Sequence record: MZ234033.1
Source: Escherichia phage vB_EcoS-G3B1
DNA: 51,299 bases
Strand: one strand, 5' to 3'
Part shown: positions 1 through 51,299 of the stretch, in pieces
How the letters are laid out: each line of letters starts with the position of its first letter
Numbering within the stretch: position 1 is the first letter of the stretch
Made by a program: the position numbers and the translations under genes
Notes under the pieces: model-generated
Database searches by the model: none
What the model saw: the letters and a program-made list of their open reading frames with translations, nothing else
What the model was told of the DNA's origin: nothing

Positions 1-127
1 AAGGAGTCAATAAGCCACGATGAATTTATGGGGATCTTGTTGTTCGGTGACTCTTATCGTCTTGGTTACAAGATGGTTGAGCTTGTGGAAGAGGTCAAAT
101 TCTAAATAGCACTTTTTGTTAAAACTC
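1..127. repeat. Terminal 127-bp sequence identical to 51173-51299 (circular closure overlap)
   Basis: First 127 bases of the window are repeated exactly at its end; the ORF 51092..51277 reads through the junction. Confidence 0.9.
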
Positions 128-149
128 GAAAACGATAACCAGGCATAAT
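104..149 (+). promoter_or_regulatory. Cassette motif + CATAAT (copy also at 51276-51299)
   Basis: AAATAGCACTTTTTGTTAAAAC at 104-125 beginning on stop codon; CATAAT at 144-149. Confidence 0.55.
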
Positions 150-203
150 AAATCACATAGGGCGGCACTGCGTCGCCCACAAAACCAATCAGGAGAAAGC
201 ACC

Positions 204-1097
204 ATGTTAAAACTTGCTGACATTAAATTCCCGATCACCTTCGAATCTCGCGGCATTGGTCATTACATTTTTACCGATGAAAAAACATGCCATAAGGTTG
301 ATATGAATAGCGACAAACTAAGCCCATCAGACATGGAGATTGAACACTTTATTGATGCGCACAATACGCAGTACAACGCACTTAAAGACTATGGCTATGC
401 AATGCCAGGATATACCAGCTTCCACTACAAGCCATATAAAGGCCAGGTGTTGCCAGTGCGCTCACCGGAACGCGCAGAGATTCCGATGGTCGAGATGAAA
501 ACATGCGACTATAAAAAGCTGTGGTGCTTAAGTGTTGACAATATCAAGTATCCGATCACGTTCTACACGGTTGGTAATTCAACGATTCGATTCACATCGC
601 GCGACAATGGAGTTTATAGCGATGGTACGAAATCAGAGTTGAAAGTTGATTTCTTTGTTAACGGTCACAATAGATACAATCCGCACAACGAAGAGGATAA
701 AGTGTACTACGTGGAAGACATTACAAAACACTTGTTTGGAGAAACTCCATTCGGCGGCGGTAAGACGTCAATTCAAAAAATCATTGGCGATGAGATCCAC
801 AAAGCGGCTGCCGAAATGAAAGCGCCTGGAGGCTGGCGCATTGACAAGAGCGCATTTGCAAATCAAGAAATCGTAACGCAGGGCGCAATTGAAGATATGC
901 CAGTTGCAGCCACTCTAAAAGGAGTCCGGCTTGATGACGGCACCTGGTATGAAGTAACGGCTACGCCAAAGACGATCGAGATTCATGATGACGTTGTTAT
1001 CCTTCTGCTTCACTACGGCGGCTATAAAAACCGGACGATTGCAGGTGAGATCAGCATTAAGCGCGGAACGATGGTTAAGTGGAAGGTCAAAGTGTAA
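204..1097 (+). CDS. Hypothetical protein with internal duplication (297 aa)
   Basis: ATG preceded by AGGAG; two related segments (IKFPITFESRGIGHYIFTDEKT / IKYPITFYTVGNSTIRFTSRDNG); stop TAA embedded in cassette motif. Confidence 0.6.
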   Translation: MLKLADIKFPITFESRGIGHYIFTDEKTCHKVDMNSDKLSPSDMEIEHFIDAHNTQYNALKDYGYAMPGYTSFHYKPYKGQVLPVRSPERAEIPMVEMKTCDYKKLWCLSVDNIKYPITFYTVGNSTIRFTSRDNGVYSDGTKSELKVDFFVNGHNRYNPHNEEDKVYYVEDITKHLFGETPFGGGKTSIQKIIGDEIHKAAAEMKAPGGWRIDKSAFANQEIVTQGAIEDMPVAATLKGVRLDDGTWYEVTATPKTIEIHDDVVILLLHYGGYKNRTIAGEISIKRGTMVKWKVKV

Positions 1098-1140
1098 ATA
1101 GCACTTTTTGTTAAAACTCAAATGTGGGGCCAGGTATAAT
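1096..1140 (+). promoter_or_regulatory. Cassette motif + hairpin + TATAAT
   Basis: AAATAGCACTTTTTGTTAAAAC at 1096-1117; GGGCCAGGTATAATGGCCC with TATAAT at 1135-1140. Confidence 0.55.
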
Positions 1141-1170
1141 GGCCCTACTTTCAACGAAGGAGATAAAACG

Positions 1171-1392
1171 ATGTACATTAAAAAGAAGATGAAATGCGTT
1201 TCCGTTAACTATGCTTGCTCTGGCATGTTCAAGCCTGGCGAAATATATACGGCGCAAAAACTGAAATCATCAACCGGATCTTTTTACGTGAGCAATAGTA
1301 AGGGGCATCGCATGTTCCTGAACGGCGGCGAAGGCACTAAGGTTATGGCACACGCTATGGTAATGGCTGAATTTGAGGAAGTGAAACAATGA
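1171..1392 (+). CDS. Small hypothetical protein (73 aa), paralog of next gene
   Basis: RBS GGAGA upstream of ATG 1171; shares PGxxY...FLNGGEG...AEFEEVK pattern with 1389..1634. Confidence 0.55.
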   Translation: MYIKKKMKCVSVNYACSGMFKPGEIYTAQKLKSSTGSFYVSNSKGHRMFLNGGEGTKVMAHAMVMAEFEEVKQ

Positions 1393-1634
1393 TCATTGAA
1401 AACAATTTTCTTTGCGTTAAGAGCAATAGACCATTCTTCACGCCTGGCAAGGTGTACCAGGGCAAGAAGGACACAAGAGATGGTCACTCTTATCATGTTC
1501 ACTGCAACAACGGATACAAGTTTTACCTTAACGGCGAGAATGGAACAGAGATCGTTGCGTTTGAAAACGTAGTTGCCGAGTTTGAGCAGATTACAGACGC
1601 AGAATTTGAGGAAGTGAAAGATGAAAACAAATAA
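1389..1634 (+). CDS. Small hypothetical protein (81 aa), paralog of previous gene
   Basis: ATGA start/stop overlap with upstream gene; conserved YLNGENGTEIVAFENVVAEFE...EFEEVK. Confidence 0.55.
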   Translation: MIIENNFLCVKSNRPFFTPGKVYQGKKDTRDGHSYHVHCNNGYKFYLNGENGTEIVAFENVVAEFEQITDAEFEEVKDENK

Positions 1635-1842
1635 GCGCGTCAAGCACAGGTTTACTGATAACCACGGCGACGCGATTGATGTATACAAGTTTGGCGATCG
1701 AGTTTTTATTGATGGCACGTTTGAAGGTGGGCGTAGGCCGGATTTTAGGTCGATACTTACCGTTGACCAAGTGCGCAAGCTGGCAGATAAGTTAAATGAT
1801 CTGGCAGATGAAATAGAATACAAGCAAATCCATTTTAATTGA
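1621..1842 (+). CDS. Hypothetical protein (73 aa)
   Basis: ORF with overlapping start in early cassette array. Confidence 0.5.
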   Translation: MKTNKRVKHRFTDNHGDAIDVYKFGDRVFIDGTFEGGRRPDFRSILTVDQVRKLADKLNDLADEIEYKQIHFN

Positions 1843-1853
1843 TAGGTTTTATA

Positions 1854-2393
1854 ATGAAAAAATACACTTTCGAACTATGGGGCAAGAAGTACGAATTAAT
1901 AACCAGCAAGCCGATTGTTATCGTTGACCTGGACGGCACACTATCGGACGGATCGCATCGTTTGCATTTGCTGCCAACTGAAAACTTGCACCTTACGGAG
2001 TCGTGGAGCGAATTTAACAGGGCCGCCGCCGGAGATTCACCGATTAAAAGCACGATCGCGGTTATTAACGGTTTGTGGGTGTCGGGATTTGCCATCGTCA
2101 TCTTGACCGGACGCAGCGAAGAGGTGCGCTATGAAACCTGCAAATGGTTGAATGAGAGCGGCGTGAAGTTTGACGAAATCATCATGCGCCGCCAGGAGGA
2201 CAACCGAAAGGATACGGTTATTAAAGAAGAAGCCTTGCGCGCTATTGGCCTGGACAATATTGTTTGCGCCTTTGACGATTCGCCGAACGTTGTTAAGCAC
2301 TTCCGCAGCCTGGGAATCACAACCTATCAGGTCACGGAATACGACAAGCCGCACGCTCACCTGCAATCTCACGGCGTGGAGTGTTTAAAATGA
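1854..2393 (+). CDS. Polynucleotide 3'-phosphatase, HAD family (T4 Pnkp phosphatase-domain-like)
   Basis: DxDGT motif (VIVDLDGTL), TGRSEE and RRQEDNRKDTVIKEE segments, C-terminal AFDDSPNVV; resembles the phosphatase half of T4 Pnkp from memory. Confidence 0.7.
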   Translation: MKKYTFELWGKKYELITSKPIVIVDLDGTLSDGSHRLHLLPTENLHLTESWSEFNRAAAGDSPIKSTIAVINGLWVSGFAIVILTGRSEEVRYETCKWLNESGVKFDEIIMRRQEDNRKDTVIKEEALRAIGLDNIVCAFDDSPNVVKHFRSLGITTYQVTEYDKPHAHLQSHGVECLK

Positions 2394-2551
2394 CTTGGTT
2401 GCTTTTAATATTTGTCACAAGTTACAACTCCGCAGCTATTGAGTCGCAGGAGTTCCACGGCGAATCAAGATGCCAGGAAGCGCGAAAGCAAGTTATTCTC
2501 CACATGTCAGATAGTGGGAAGGATGTAACAGCGTTATGCGTTCGTAAATAG
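2390..2551 (+). CDS. Small hydrophobic-N-terminus peptide (53 aa)
   Basis: ATGA overlap with upstream stop; uninterrupted 54 codons translated by hand; stop TAG sits inside cassette motif; below the 60-aa ORF-track threshold. Confidence 0.3.
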   Translation: MTWLLLIFVTSYNSAAIESQEFHGESRCQEARKQVILHMSDSGKDVTALCVRK

Positions 2552-2596
2552 CACTTTTTGCAAAAAACAGATCATCGGGCTTGCTGTATAGTAAGC
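2546..2596 (+). promoter_or_regulatory. Cassette motif variant + hairpin with TATAGT
   Basis: AAATAGCACTTTTTGCAAAAAAC at 2546-2568; hairpin GGGCTTGCTGTATAGTAAGCCC. Confidence 0.5.
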
Positions 2597-2623
2597 CCAT
2601 CAACAACAAACGAGGATTAAATC

Positions 2624-2887
2624 ATGGCTAACAAGATCGAGTTTTTTAAAGCTGTAGACATTATCGACGGCGCGCCTAGCTTCTTTGCTATCCATTCTAT
2701 TGACGGCAAGGATATTGGGTACAACGTTATCCGTCGAGATGGAATATCAAAAATTAGTGACCTGGTAGGCCATATTGTGTCAAACGGGAAATGCGCATGG
2801 CCCGATTCGCCACGAGAGCCGCGCCGCCGCGACATGGTAGAGCCTGTTCTGCTTTACACTCTGGTAGTAGAGGGAGAAAATAAATGA
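2624..2887 (+). CDS. Hypothetical protein (87 aa)
   Basis: ATG 2624 preceded by GAGGA; downstream of cassette motif. Confidence 0.55.
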   Translation: MANKIEFFKAVDIIDGAPSFFAIHSIDGKDIGYNVIRRDGISKISDLVGHIVSNGKCAWPDSPREPRRRDMVEPVLLYTLVVEGENK

Positions 2888-3069
2888 TTTTGTTACTTGC
2901 TTTTTTGGTTGTTTTTCTTTACATTTCAGGCTTATTCACGTTCCGCGCGTTTGTGAAATATTCTGGCGCGACAAACAAGGACGATAAAATCGTTCTAGCT
3001 TTCTGGTTTGTTTGGGTGTGGTTAGCAATTTACGAGATCATCAGAGACAAACAGAAATTTGAGTGGTGA
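2884..3069 (+). CDS. Small membrane protein (61 aa, two predicted TM segments)
   Basis: ATGA overlap with upstream gene; hydrophobic stretches LLLAFLVVFLYISGLF and LAFWFVWVWLAIY. Confidence 0.5.
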   Translation: MILLLAFLVVFLYISGLFTFRAFVKYSGATNKDDKIVLAFWFVWVWLAIYEIIRDKQKFEW

Positions 3070-3125
3070 TTCTTGCTATGGCGCATTCATGCAGTGCGCC
3101 ATGTTGAGAAAACCTAAAGGGGGAA

Positions 3126-3278
3126 ATGATGCGTAACTTTGAAAAAATCATTACCAAAAAGAAGCGTCGCGGGTACGATGAGCATGTGGAGCTTGTGAAA
3201 AAGCAACGCAAGAAGCGCAACGAAGACAAGAAGCGCGGGAAAAAATTTAATGCGATTTTTCGCTATGGAGATCATTAA
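3126..3278 (+). CDS. Small highly basic protein (50 aa)
   Basis: Strong RBS AAAGGGGGAA before ATG; K/R-rich product (KKKRRG...KKQRKKRNEDKKRGKK); stop 3 nt before next ATG. Confidence 0.35.
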   Translation: MMRNFEKIITKKKRRGYDEHVELVKKQRKKRNEDKKRGKKFNAIFRYGDH

Positions 3279-3280
3279 TC

Positions 3281-3871
3281 ATGAAACGAGACATTATCAT
3301 CCTTAATGGGACGCCAGGTTGCGGGAAGGACACTATTGCAGCTTACCTAACGGGCCATAGTTACCCAGCGGTTAAGGCGTCATTCAAACAGCCGATGTTC
3401 GATATTGCGTTTTCCATGCTTGGCCCGACTCGATATGATGAGTTTATTGACCTGTACAACGACCGAGAGCAAAAAGAAAAGCCTCAAGTTATCTTAGGCG
3501 GCAAGTCACCTCGACAATTCATGATCTGGATTAGCGAGGATGTAATGAAGCCAGTCTTTGGGGATCACTATTTCGGGCGTCGAATGGTTGAAGAGATTAA
3601 CGAGATGTACCGAGATTTGGCGGTTGTGATCAGTGATGGCGGATTCCCCGAAGAAATCAAGCCGCTTGTTAAGGCAGGGCATGAAGTGCATATTTGCCGA
3701 TTGCATCGCGACGGCTTCACGTTTGCTGGCGATTCGAGAGACTACATTGACCTGAGCGGTTATCACTATCGAATCCATCACTATGACTTCCACTTGCAGG
3801 ACGGCAAGCCGGAACTGGCTGTAAACGAGATCGTCAATGCTGTCAAATGGAAGCACACACAGATTAAATAG
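3281..3871 (+). CDS. P-loop nucleotide or polynucleotide kinase (T4 gp1 dNMP-kinase-like Walker A)
   Basis: Walker A GTPGCGKDT near N-terminus; size 196 aa; adjacent to phosphatase gene cassette. Confidence 0.5.
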   Translation: MKRDIIILNGTPGCGKDTIAAYLTGHSYPAVKASFKQPMFDIAFSMLGPTRYDEFIDLYNDREQKEKPQVILGGKSPRQFMIWISEDVMKPVFGDHYFGRRMVEEINEMYRDLAVVISDGGFPEEIKPLVKAGHEVHICRLHRDGFTFAGDSRDYIDLSGYHYRIHHYDFHLQDGKPELAVNEIVNAVKWKHTQIK

Positions 3872-39645: not shown

Positions 39646-39707
39646 TAGCACTTTTTGTTAAAACGCCCGGCATTTTGTCGGGCATAATTATTTCATCGAA
39701 ACGAACG
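39644..39707 (+). promoter_or_regulatory. Cassette motif + hairpin + CATAAT + conserved leader CATCGAAACGAAC
   Basis: AATAGCACTTTTTGTTAAAAC, hairpin GCCCGGCATTTTGTCGGGC, CATAAT, then TCATCGAAACGAACGTGAGGAAA. Confidence 0.55.
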
Positions 39708-47174: not shown

Positions 47175-47387
47175 TCATTTCTTATTTTTCATCTTAAATT
47201 TATGGCCCGGAACACCAGCGCCAATATAGCCATCGTTGTATTCCATCAAATAAAGGTGAAGACCATTATCTGAAATTAAATGAGGATCTTCTTTGAGGTT
47301 TCCCATTAGTGGGTATTCTTTTCCGCGCGTAAATTTCCAAATTGAGTTATAAGTTTCTACGCATTTAAGTTTTAATTGCTTTGCCAT
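47175..47387 (-). CDS. Small hypothetical protein (70 aa)
   Basis: Start overlaps upstream stop. Confidence 0.5.
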   Translation of the reverse strand: MAKQLKLKCVETYNSIWKFTRGKEYPLMGNLKEDPHLISDNGLHLYLMEYNDGYIGAGVPGHKFKMKNKK

Positions 47388-51091: not shown

Positions 51092-51277
51092 ATGAAAACG
51101 AAACTAGTCCATAAGTCAGAAATCAAGATCGGCGATACTGTGATTCACAACGGCGAGCTTAGAACGGTTGGCAAGGAGTCAATAAGCCACGATGAATTTA
51201 TGGGGATCTTGTTGTTCGGTGACTCTTATCGTCTTGGTTACAAGATGGTTGAGCTTGTGGAAGAGGTCAAATTCTAA
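51092..51277 (+). CDS. Small hypothetical protein (61 aa), runs across the circular junction
   Basis: RBS AGGTGAATAG; C-terminal ELVEEVKF resembles the EFEEVK ends of 1171..1634 proteins; stop inside cassette motif. Confidence 0.5.
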   Translation: MKTKLVHKSEIKIGDTVIHNGELRTVGKESISHDEFMGILLFGDSYRLGYKMVELVEEVKF

Positions 51278-51299
51278 ATAGCACTTTTTGTTAAAACTC

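What the first reader, a model, noticed from the sequence alone, without database searches (positions are those of the whole stretch)
1171..1634. Tandemly duplicated small genes with shared C-terminal EFEEVK motif, echoed in the junction-spanning gene
The 73-aa and 81-aa products share PGxxY ... (F/Y)LNG(G/E)(E/N)GT ... (M/V)AEFE ... EFEEVK, and the gene at 51092..51277 ends in the similar ELVEEVKF. This points to a small protein family expanded within the early region.
Basis: seen in the sequence. Interest (0 to 1): 0.35.

Follow-up and report, generated by a model that had tools for sequence, protein, structure and literature searches.

The report
Two stacked alleles of a small phage gene
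Two neighbouring small early genes of this T1-like coliphage are real but distant relatives, and their identical "EFEEVK" ending comes from an exact 18-base DNA repeat that also holds the ribosome-binding site of the next gene and marks where the second gene is gained or lost.

Summary
The window is a Warwickvirus genome (Drexlerviridae, T1-like coliphage), about 99% identical to phages tinuso, tonn and swan01.

- **A and B are true paralogues.** Gene A (1171..1392, 73 aa) and gene B (1389..1634, 81 aa) give BLASTP E=1e-14 at 34% identity. The shuffle z-score is 20.7, and 14.2 without the tail. Both match PHROG 9122.
- **The third gene is unrelated.** Gene C (51092..51277) scores z=-0.4, hhalign probability 0.18%, and belongs to a different PHROG.
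- **The shared EFEEVK is not ordinary family conservation.** B carries its own homologous last strand (AEFEQI) plus a second copy. That copy is encoded by an exact 18-nt direct repeat (1369-1386 and 1602-1619) that brackets B, while the gene bodies are only 50% identical in DNA.
- **The repeat carries a strong Shine-Dalgarno sequence.** GAGGA (-9.9 kcal/mol) lies 8-9 nt before the start of the next gene, B or D.
- **Relatives show three arrangements.** They are A-only, B-only, or A+B. A-only phages equal A+B minus exactly one 233-nt repeat unit, sometimes in flanks 99.5% identical.
- **The junction is reused.** The same junction precedes five other downstream sequences in relatives.

The tandem pair is most likely two diverged alleles stacked by recombination at a boundary sequence that encodes a translation start region. 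Protein function is unknown. The predicted all-beta fold matches only uncharacterised phage proteins. This is ordinary phage mosaicism and of low interest.

The parts
1098..1140 (+). Promoter-like element in front of gene A. It consists of the conserved 20-mer ATAGCACTTTTTGTTAAAAC, then TTAAAA (1111-1116), an 18-nt spacer and TATAAT (1135-1140).
   Evidence: This is the best sigma-70-like site in 1..3400, matching 10 of 12 positions. The 20-mer recurs 18 times in the window, always upstream of a (T/C)ATAAT-like hexamer. The same promoter precedes A in A-only phages and B in B-only phages.
1171..1392 (+). Gene A, 73 aa, small all-beta early protein of PHROG 9122. It ends ...VMAEFEEVKQ*, and its stop codon overlaps the B start (ATGA, 1389-1392).
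   Evidence: The SD AAGGAG lies at 1157-1162, duplex energy -8.8 kcal/mol. The BFVD model of the phage tonn homologue superposes on the B model at TM 0.79-0.87, rmsd 1.2.
1366..1386 (+). Junction repeat, copy 1: GCTGAATTTGAGGAAGTGAAA, encoding AEFEEVK of A. It contains GAGGA (1375-1379) 9 nt upstream of the B start codon.
   Evidence: exact 18-nt match 1369-1386 = 1602-1619; 0.16 matches expected by chance even allowing 3 mismatches. Anti-SD duplex -9.9 kcal/mol; only about 3% of random window positions reach -8 or lower.
1389..1634 (+). Gene B, 81 aa, diverged paralogue of A (34% identity). Its own homologous last strand AEFEQI is encoded at 1575-1592. It is followed by an extra tail, TDAEFEEVKDENK, that is shared with A-only alleles.
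   Evidence: The AlphaFold2 model has mean pLDDT 86.9, six beta strands, and a helix at residues 70-79 formed by the extra tail at lower confidence.
1387..1619 (+). The 233-nt unit, from one repeat copy to the next, that is present in A+B phages and absent in A-only phages. An equivalent description of the same unit is 1369..1601.
   Evidence: The DNA alignment of the window with JLBYU16 and tiwna shows a single clean 233-nt gap bounded by the repeat, with one mismatch to JLBYU16 and four to tiwna in the shared sequence. A-only proteins read A body + EFEEVKDENK.
1599..1619 (+). Junction repeat, copy 2: GCAGAATTTGAGGAAGTGAAA, encoding AEFEEVK of B. It contains GAGGA (1608-1612) 8 nt upstream of the D start codon.
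1621..1842 (+). Gene D, 73 aa, PHROG 14011, function unknown. Its start lies 14 nt inside the end of B, or of A in A-only phages. In two relatives it is fused in frame to A.
   Evidence: Fusions in tonnikala and JLBYU41 arise from two different 1-nt deletions.
51092..51277 (+). Gene C, 61 aa, PHROG 3623. It was examined because the finding names it, and it is excluded from the A/B family.

Best explanation
A and B are two diverged versions of one small all-beta early protein of Tempevirinae phages. They sit in tandem as the first genes of a transcription unit.

They were most likely not made by a local duplication. In the phage population this position, behind one conserved promoter, holds allele A, allele A' (58% identical to A) or allele B (34% identical). 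Some genomes carry an A-type allele and B stacked together.

The stacking and un-stacking happen at a short boundary sequence, GAATTTGAGGAAGTGAAA. This sequence has two roles. It encodes the end of the upstream protein (EFEEVK). It also holds the Shine-Dalgarno sequence, GAGGA placed 8-9 nt before the ATG, of whichever gene follows.

Because the sequence is needed to start the next gene, it is kept identical. It therefore offers a patch of homology at which cassettes can be joined or deleted. B carries both its own homologous last strand (AEFEQI) and a second copy, AEFEEVKDENK, inherited from the recipient locus.

Shown here:
- the paralogy of A and B;
- the exact repeat bracketing B;
- the 233-nt presence/absence polymorphism, with one repeat copy left behind;
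- the reuse of the junction in front of several different genes;
- the strong predicted SD.

Inferred:
- that recombination at the repeat produced these haplotypes, and in which direction;
- that the SD is actually used;
- that the proteins are dispensable accessory early factors that act on the host. Their biochemical function remains unknown.
For: - **Paralogy.**
- **Same family.** A matches PHROG 9122 at E=1.8e-4 and B at 2.6e-10. Both ityhuna homologues are annotated pVOG VOG9991.
- **Exact repeat bracketing B.** The 18-nt repeat is exact, while codon-aligned DNA identity of A and B is only 50%.
- **B-type alleles carry both copies of the motif.** Every full-length B-type protein recovered has AEFEQ(I/V)TD followed by AEFEEV.
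- **A-only haplotypes.** JLBYU16 and tiwna equal the window minus one 233-nt repeat unit, and their protein ends AEFEEVKDENK. JLBYU16 is 99.5% identical to the window in the flanks.
- **B-only haplotypes.** Henu8 and Jahat have B directly behind the same promoter.
- **Counts among phage records.** About 100 carry the family, 24-25 have two copies, and about 29 carry B.
- **A'+B haplotypes.** They use the same A-to-B junction (L008).
- **Junction reuse.** TTTGAGGAAGTG plus 3-8 nt plus ATG precedes D, B, a D variant (SECphi27, tunus), a predicted 60-aa membrane protein (Jahat), and two further sequences in L012 and L014.
- **SD strength.** -9.9 kcal/mol for B and D, against -8.8 for A and a background mean of -2.6.
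- **Co-transcription is plausible.** The strongest promoter-like site in 1..3400 lies just upstream of A; weaker 9-of-12 matches fall inside the block, and no terminator-like site lies within A-B-D.
- **Dispensability.** One lineage has a nonsense codon in A and D cut to 4 codons.
- **Precedent.** In mycobacteriophage Island3, gp68 shares its C-terminal 18 residues with the upstream gp67 through a ~50-bp DNA repeat, and Brujita lacks the gene (PMC3029335).
Against: - **A protein-level constraint also exists.** The C-terminal strand AEFE-V is conserved in distant family members with different DNA: P0037 ends ...ARFEAVE and P0044 ends ...AEFEIVEE. Part of the motif's conservation is therefore not a consequence of the RBS.
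- **The left joint of B has almost no homology.** There is only microhomology (AAA-N-ATGA) to the B-only upstream sequence. The event that first created A+B cannot have been simple homologous exchange.
- **The direction of change is not resolved.** It could be insertion or deletion, and the haplotypes were not mapped on a genome phylogeny.
- **SD spacing is long in one context.** In SECphi27/tunus the distance from GAGGA to the ATG is about 12 nt. There, termination-reinitiation rather than the SD may matter.
- **No experimental data** on expression, recombination or function.
Confidence: 0.7

Rival explanations
1. An old tandem duplication arose in place and then diverged. Under this view EFEEVK is a functional C-terminal peptide kept identical by selection on the protein, and single-copy phages are independent losses.
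For: AEFE-V at the C-terminus is conserved in distant family members. A and B have the same predicted fold. The two genes are adjacent and co-oriented.
Against: Selection on a peptide does not explain identity at every synonymous site over 18 nt when the rest of the genes is 50% identical in DNA. B already has the homologous strand (AEFEQI), and the EFEEVK is an extra, second copy. A, A' and B each occur alone behind the same promoter. The A-only allele carries the tail found on B in tandem genomes, which is exactly the product expected from exchange between the repeats.
Confidence: 0.15
2. B is a mobile cassette (homing or transposon-like) that inserted into the end of A and created a target-site duplication of 18-21 nt.
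For: Direct repeats flank B exactly, and an 'empty site' with one copy exists in relatives.
Against: No endonuclease, transposase or integrase lies in or next to the unit; Pfam and NCBIfam find nothing in A, B or D. The inserted gene is a homologue of the gene it sits in, which a random mobile element would not be. B also occurs alone at the same locus behind the promoter. The 'HNH endonuclease' label on the A-like and D-like genes of PP988008 has no support.
Confidence: 0.05
3. One reading: a three-member family (A, B and the gene at 51092..51277) that shares a C-terminal E-E-V-K motif and is expanding in the early region.
For: Only the visual resemblance of ELVEEVKF to EFEEVK. All three are small, predicted beta-rich early proteins.
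Against: BLASTP finds no alignment at E<=100. Shuffle z-scores are below 0. hhalign probability is 0.18%. The PHROGs differ. The codons differ: GTGGAAGAGGTCAAATTC against TTTGAGGAAGTGAAA. The motif is lost in divergent C homologues. A Foldseek search with the C model returns only its own family, though that model is of low confidence at pLDDT 65.9.
Confidence: 0.02

Closest known systems
PHROG 9122 / pVOG VOG9991: uncharacterised small proteins of T1-like (Drexlerviridae, Tempevirinae) phages
   Same: Both A and B match this family over its whole 64-position profile. The two homologues in phage ityhuna are both annotated VOG9991. All are 65-81-aa proteins encoded just upstream of the polynucleotide kinase/phosphatase gene.
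   Different: The database families carry no function and no note of the tandem arrangement, the repeat or the allele structure. Another A-type allele, in tiwna, is filed under a different pVOG, VOG7062.
Mosaic joints at short conserved boundary sequences in phage genomes, for example mycobacteriophage Island3 gp67/gp68 against Brujita (Pope et al. 2011, PMC3029335). The lambdoid 'boundary sequence' idea is from my own knowledge of the Susskind-Botstein and Clark et al. literature.
   Same: An extra small gene shares its C-terminal residues with the upstream gene because of a DNA repeat at both ends of the inserted unit. A relative lacks the unit and keeps one repeat copy.
   Different: Here the repeat is shorter (18-21 nt against about 50 bp). 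The inserted gene is itself a diverged homologue of its neighbour. The repeat coincides with the Shine-Dalgarno sequence of the following gene and is reused in front of several different genes.
Translationally coupled overlapping genes, with ATGA or TAATG overlaps and the SD inside the upstream ORF (general bacterial and phage operon feature; own knowledge)
   Same: A/B overlap by ATGA, and B/D overlap by 14 nt. A strong SD lies within the last codons of the upstream gene.
   Different: Coupling itself was not measured. What is particular here is that the same start-region cassette is duplicated and serves as the recombination joint.
Small SH3-like beta-barrel domains
   Same: The B model is a small six-stranded all-beta protein. 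A few SH3 or SH3-like chains appear among weak Foldseek hits.
   Different: No significant match: best PDB hit E=0.53, TM<=0.36. This is not a demonstrated member of any solved fold family.

Membership tests
PHROG 9122 (small uncharacterised Drexlerviridae proteins) | Significant full-length match to the family profile | tested here: met
   B: E=2.6e-10, profile positions 5-63 of 64. A: E=1.8e-4, positions 2-63 of 64. A is weaker, but it is independently linked to B by BLASTP at 1e-14.
A/B family: does gene C (51092..51277) belong? | Sequence or profile similarity above chance to A/B | tested here: not met
   No BLASTP alignment at E<=100. Shuffle z-scores -0.39 and -0.48. hhalign probability 0.18%. 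hmmsearch of the window ORFs does not list it. It belongs to a different family, PHROG 3623.
Boundary-repeat mosaic joint (Island3 gp67/gp68 type) | Direct DNA repeat at both ends of the variable unit, located at gene ends | tested here: met
   Copies at 1366-1386 and 1599-1619, 18 nt exact. Each lies in the last codons of a gene.
Boundary-repeat mosaic joint (Island3 gp67/gp68 type) | Close relatives that lack the unit retain exactly one repeat copy with otherwise collinear flanks | tested here: met
   JLBYU16 and tiwna show a clean 233-nt gap. JLBYU16 flanks are 99.5% identical to the window.
Boundary-repeat mosaic joint (Island3 gp67/gp68 type) | Recombination between the repeats actually occurs | not testable with these tools
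   This needs sequencing of phage populations or genetic crosses.
Translationally coupled gene pair | Stop/start overlap or close abutment, with an SD inside the upstream ORF at working distance | tested here: met
   ATGA overlap at 1389-1392, and a 14-nt overlap at 1621-1634. GAGGA lies 9 and 8 nt before the two ATGs, duplex energy -9.9 kcal/mol.
Translationally coupled gene pair | Downstream translation depends on upstream translation or on the SD | not testable with these tools
   This needs reporter fusions with synonymous SD mutations or premature stops.
HNH endonuclease (label given to the A-like and D-like genes in record PP988008) | Match to an HNH or other nuclease domain model | tested here: not met
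   Pfam gives no family for A or B at E<=1, and for D only a sub-threshold Dip match. NCBIfam gives none for A or D and only a chance-level PrpE match for B. The annotation was seen.
Any solved protein fold or family | Significant structural or sequence match to a PDB chain | tested here: not met
   Foldseek against PDB: best E=0.53. The PDB profile search returns only designed 'Cake' propeller repeats whose score grows with repeat number and in which no single stretch passes, so it is judged spurious.

The most novel reading that the evidence does not exclude
The locus may be a small cassette-exchange site for accessory early genes, possibly for host take-over or counter-defence. In this reading a conserved linker that encodes a translation start region works as a portable, enzyme-independent recombination site. 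It lets diverged alleles (A, A', B) be swapped or stacked, and lets different downstream genes be plugged in.

In the same reading, A or B acts together with D as a two-part module. Two observations hint at this. Two independent single-base deletions fuse A to D in frame (tonnikala and JLBYU41). One lineage has lost A and D together while keeping B.
Probability: 0.2. Interest if true: 0.45.

Novelty: new member of a known kind. Interest (0 to 1): 0.2.

Why it matters
The main value is as a correction and a clean textbook example.

- **A caution for sequence-only reading.** An identical C-terminal 'motif' in neighbouring phage genes can be a DNA repeat left by recombination, and can double as the next gene's ribosome-binding site. 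It need not be a protein signature.
- **A small illustration of the boundary-sequence model.** The locus shows how short conserved sequences at gene boundaries can generate presence/absence and allele-stacking polymorphism among nearly identical virulent phages.
- **A candidate locus for follow-up.** The locus is variable and dispensable, so it is a reasonable place to look for host-range or anti-defence determinants in Tempevirinae phages. Nothing here shows such a function.

Tried and rejected
- **Curated family libraries.** Pfam and NCBIfam give nothing for A, B or C. The only hits are a chance-level PrpE match for B and a sub-threshold Dip match for D.
- **Exhaustive profile search of 1.84 billion representatives.** True relatives are a handful of 42-78-aa proteins or fragments. 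The hits to proteins of 438-3288 aa are multi-stretch partial matches; the six checked against Pfam were mostly repeat proteins (Ig, PA14, beta-trefoil, propeller-like). I rejected these large hits as additive artefacts.
- **PDB by sequence.** Only designed 'Cake' propellers, the same kind of artefact.
- **PDB by structure.** Nothing significant.
- **BFVD by structure.** Only uncharacterised phage proteins, so no functional transfer is possible.
- **Structure of gene C.** Confidence was low (pLDDT 65.9), and its fold search returned only its own family.
- **IMG/VR scan.** It gave only 8 loci, too few for a population survey.
- **Programmed frameshift at the A-run in the B/D overlap.** I considered this and dropped it. 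There is no canonical slippery site or stimulator at working distance, and the fused forms in relatives are explained by real 1-nt indels.
- **The 'HNH endonuclease' annotation in PP988008.** Rejected.
- **C-D similarity.** The shuffle z-score is 4.2. I noted it but did not pursue it.

Full report
**What the window is.** A 1-kb stretch around the finding is 98.8-99.3% identical to the Escherichia phages tinuso, tonn, swan01 and Phunderstruck. Close relatives fetched here, such as ityhuna, are classified as Drexlerviridae; Tempevirinae; Warwickvirus, i.e. T1-like virulent siphophages. The first 127 bases of the window repeat its last 127. The window is therefore a circularly assembled genome of 51,172 bp with an assembly overlap. 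The 'junction-spanning' gene 51092..51277 is an ordinary gene.

**Check of the observation.**
- ORFs A (1171..1392, 73 aa) and B (1389..1634, 81 aa) exist as described.
- BLASTP aligns them over 71 residues at 34% identity, E=1e-14.
- Their Smith-Waterman score is 115 against 23.5 +/- 4.4 for 2000 shuffles (z=20.7). With the AEFE tails cut off, z is still 14.2.
- Both match PHROG 9122 over the full profile, and more weakly PHROG 10169.
- In phage ityhuna both homologues are annotated with the same pVOG, VOG9991.

A and B are therefore real paralogues. Gene C (51092..51277, ending ELVEEVKF) is not related.
- BLASTP finds no alignment at E<=100.
- Shuffle z-scores are -0.39 and -0.48.
- hhalign between a 16-sequence A/B alignment and a 17-sequence C alignment gives probability 0.18%.
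- C belongs to PHROG 3623.
- The ending ...EEVKF is lost in the more divergent C homologues.
- The codons differ from those of EFEEVK in A and B.
- A Foldseek search with the low-confidence C model returns only C's own family.

**What the shared EFEEVK really is.** The protein alignment pairs A's ...VMAEFEEV with B's ...VVAEFEQI. B then continues with a second copy, TDAEFEEVKDENK.
- At the DNA level, A's tail and B's extra tail are an exact 18-nt direct repeat, GAATTTGAGGAAGTGAAA, at 1369-1386 and 1602-1619. With one mismatch it extends to 21 nt. The start-to-start spacing is 233 nt.
- The two genes are otherwise only 50% identical in codon-aligned DNA. The repeat is therefore not residual homology.
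- The repeat brackets gene B exactly. Copy 1 ends 2 nt before B's ATG, and the A stop overlaps the B start as ATGA. Copy 2 ends 1 nt before the ATG of the next gene, D (1621..1842), which overlaps the end of B by 14 nt.
- Each copy holds GAGGA 9 or 8 nt upstream of that ATG. The predicted duplex with the 3' end of 16S rRNA is -9.9 kcal/mol. This is stronger than gene A's own site (-8.8) and all but one of the other gene starts tested. The background mean is -2.6, and 3.4% of random positions reach -8 or lower.

**Relatives.** tblastn against 50,697 phage records finds the family in about 100 records, all Escherichia, Shigella or Salmonella phages of this group. About 24-25 records have two copies. 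About 29 carry a B-type gene at 80% identity or more. The rest carry only an A-type gene. Three allele classes occur: A, A' (58% identical to A, e.g. tunus, XY3, NorthRox) and B.
- **A-only phages.** JLBYU16 (99.5% identical to the window in the flanks) and tiwna encode A's body ending in AEFEEVKDENK, which is the tail that B carries in the window. The DNA alignment shows one clean 233-nt gap bounded by the repeat.
- **B-only phages.** Henu8 and Jahat_MG145 have B directly behind the same promoter and leader that precede A in the window. B still carries the double AEFEQ..AEFEEV ending.
- **A'+B phages.** L008 uses the same A-to-B junction with TAATG instead of CAATGA; NorthRox carries A' and B at 0-3 nt apart with a junction that was not recovered in the motif scan.
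- **Reuse of the junction.** Across 20 loci, TTTGAGGAAGTG followed by 3-8 nt and ATG precedes D, B, a D variant (SECphi27, tunus), a predicted 60-aa membrane protein (Jahat), and two further sequences (L012, L014).
- **More distant members.** Members from metagenomes end ...ARFEAVE* with TAATG, and ...AEFEIVEE* with GGAGGA before the next ATG. The last strand is therefore conserved at the protein level, and a start signal for the next gene is again embedded in it.

**Interpretation.** The pair is best read as two diverged alleles of one accessory early gene, stacked at a boundary sequence that encodes both the family's C-terminal residues and the translation start region of the next gene.
- Because that sequence must stay functional for the downstream gene, it stays identical between otherwise diverged cassettes. 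It therefore provides homology for exchange.
- Recombination between the two copies in an A+B genome gives exactly the A-only allele seen in nature.
- The event that first placed B behind A cannot have been plain homologous exchange. The left joint shares only AAA-N-ATGA with the B-only leader.
- The direction and number of events were not resolved.
- This is the same kind of structure described for mycobacteriophage Island3 gp67/gp68 against Brujita. There an extra gene shares its C-terminal 18 residues with the upstream gene through a ~50-bp repeat (PMC3029335). That paper also cites the general proposal that mosaic joints can form at short conserved boundary sequences.

**Expression context.** A strong promoter-like site (TTAAAA-18-TATAAT, 10 of 12 matches) lies at 1111-1140. 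It sits within a conserved 20-mer that recurs 18 times in the window. Only weaker promoter-like matches (9 of 12) and no terminator-like site fall within A, B or D. The three genes are probably co-transcribed, with B and D initiated from the junction cassette. This is inferred.

**Protein function.** Unknown.
- AlphaFold2 on the family alignment gives a confident small all-beta model for B: pLDDT 86.9, six strands. The extra tail forms a lower-confidence helix.
- The model has no significant PDB match; the best is E=0.53.
- In BFVD it matches only uncharacterised proteins. The top hits are the A and B homologues (TM 0.79-0.98). Below them come small proteins of other T1-like and siphophages at TM 0.5-0.8.
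- The exhaustive profile search finds only a few small relatives. The large repeat-protein hits are artefacts, as are the designed propellers in the PDB sequence search.
- Several features fit a non-essential accessory early gene: presence/absence variation, strongly diverged alleles in near-identical genomes, and a lineage in which A has a nonsense codon and D is cut to four codons. My guess, at low confidence, is a host-directed or counter-defence role.

**Verdict.** This is a neat but ordinary case of phage mosaicism, in a family already clustered (without function) in PHROG and pVOG. It is a new member of a known kind, and of low interest.

Noticed in passing
window 1..127 and 51173..51299: The two ends of the window are identical over 127 nt. 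This is an assembly overlap of a circularly permuted genome; the true length is 51,172 bp.
   Followed up: yes
window, 18 sites, e.g. 106, 1098, 2548, 5183, 38574, 39645, 50815 (+) and 49470, 48165, 45742, 42906 (-): The conserved 20-mer ATAGCACTTTTTGTTAAAAC (up to 3 mismatches) is usually followed after about 16-18 nt by a (T/C)ATAAT-like hexamer (not evident at a few sites, e.g. 36085 and 14012), so this looks like a family of phage promoters. In several copies the spacer contains an inverted repeat (e.g. GCCCGGC...GTCGGGC at 39665). The TAA stop of the upstream gene often abuts the motif directly.
   Followed up: partly
window 92-130 and 1084-1122: A 39-nt direct repeat at 92% identity covers the last codons of gene C and of the 297-aa gene, plus the promoter 20-mer. 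The last few codons of gene C therefore lie inside a different DNA repeat, unrelated to the EFEEVK repeat.
   Followed up: partly
window 204..1097: The 297-aa protein upstream of A matches the 173-position PHROG 7116 profile in two stretches. It shows an internal repeat (IKFPITF... / IKYPITF...). The JLBYU16 homologue is only 190 aa and tonnikala has it split. This points to an internal domain duplication that varies between relatives.
   Followed up: partly
L017 1201-1638 (tonnikala) and L020 701-1138 (JLBYU41); corresponds to window ~1613-1634: Two different single-A deletions in the A-rich overlap GATGAAAACAAATAAG fuse gene A in frame to gene D, giving a 145-aa protein. The joints read ...DENNKR... 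and ...DGTNKR.... This hints that A and D act together, or that the A-run is prone to slippage.
   Followed up: partly
L022 1284-1866 (metagenome lineage of P0003; listed in 484 index blocks): A widespread lineage has a TGA nonsense codon at codon 36 of A. It also has one extra A in the same A-run, which extends B to 121 aa in a third frame and cuts D to 4 codons. A and D therefore seem dispensable.
   Followed up: partly
window 47175..47387 (-): A 70-aa ORF (MAKQLKLKCVETYNSIWKFTRGKEYPL...) may be a distant third member of the A/B fold family. Support is weak: hmmsearch E=0.016 among 594 ORFs, hhalign probability 16.6% (E=0.0015) over 42 columns, PHROG 10169 E=0.029. This is suggestive only.
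   Followed up: partly
L001 1675-1827 (ityhuna) against window ~1098-1170: Many relatives carry an extra ~225-bp insertion between the 297-aa gene and A. In ityhuna it holds a 50-aa ORF (VOG8694) with a hydrophobic N-terminal stretch. Jahat instead has a 67-aa gene there. The stretch upstream of A is thus another indel hot spot.
   Followed up: no
L021 (PP988008, phage phiE31-2): This public record labels the A-like and D-like genes 'HNH endonuclease' and the 297-aa homologue 'tail fiber protein'. None of the profile searches run on the window's A and D supports the endonuclease label; the tail-fibre label was not tested beyond a PHROG match of unknown function.
   Followed up: yes
window 51092..51277 against 1621..1842: Gene C and gene D score z=4.2 in the shuffle test, with 6 of 2000 shuffles reaching the observed score. 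This may be a distant relationship or chance.
   Followed up: no
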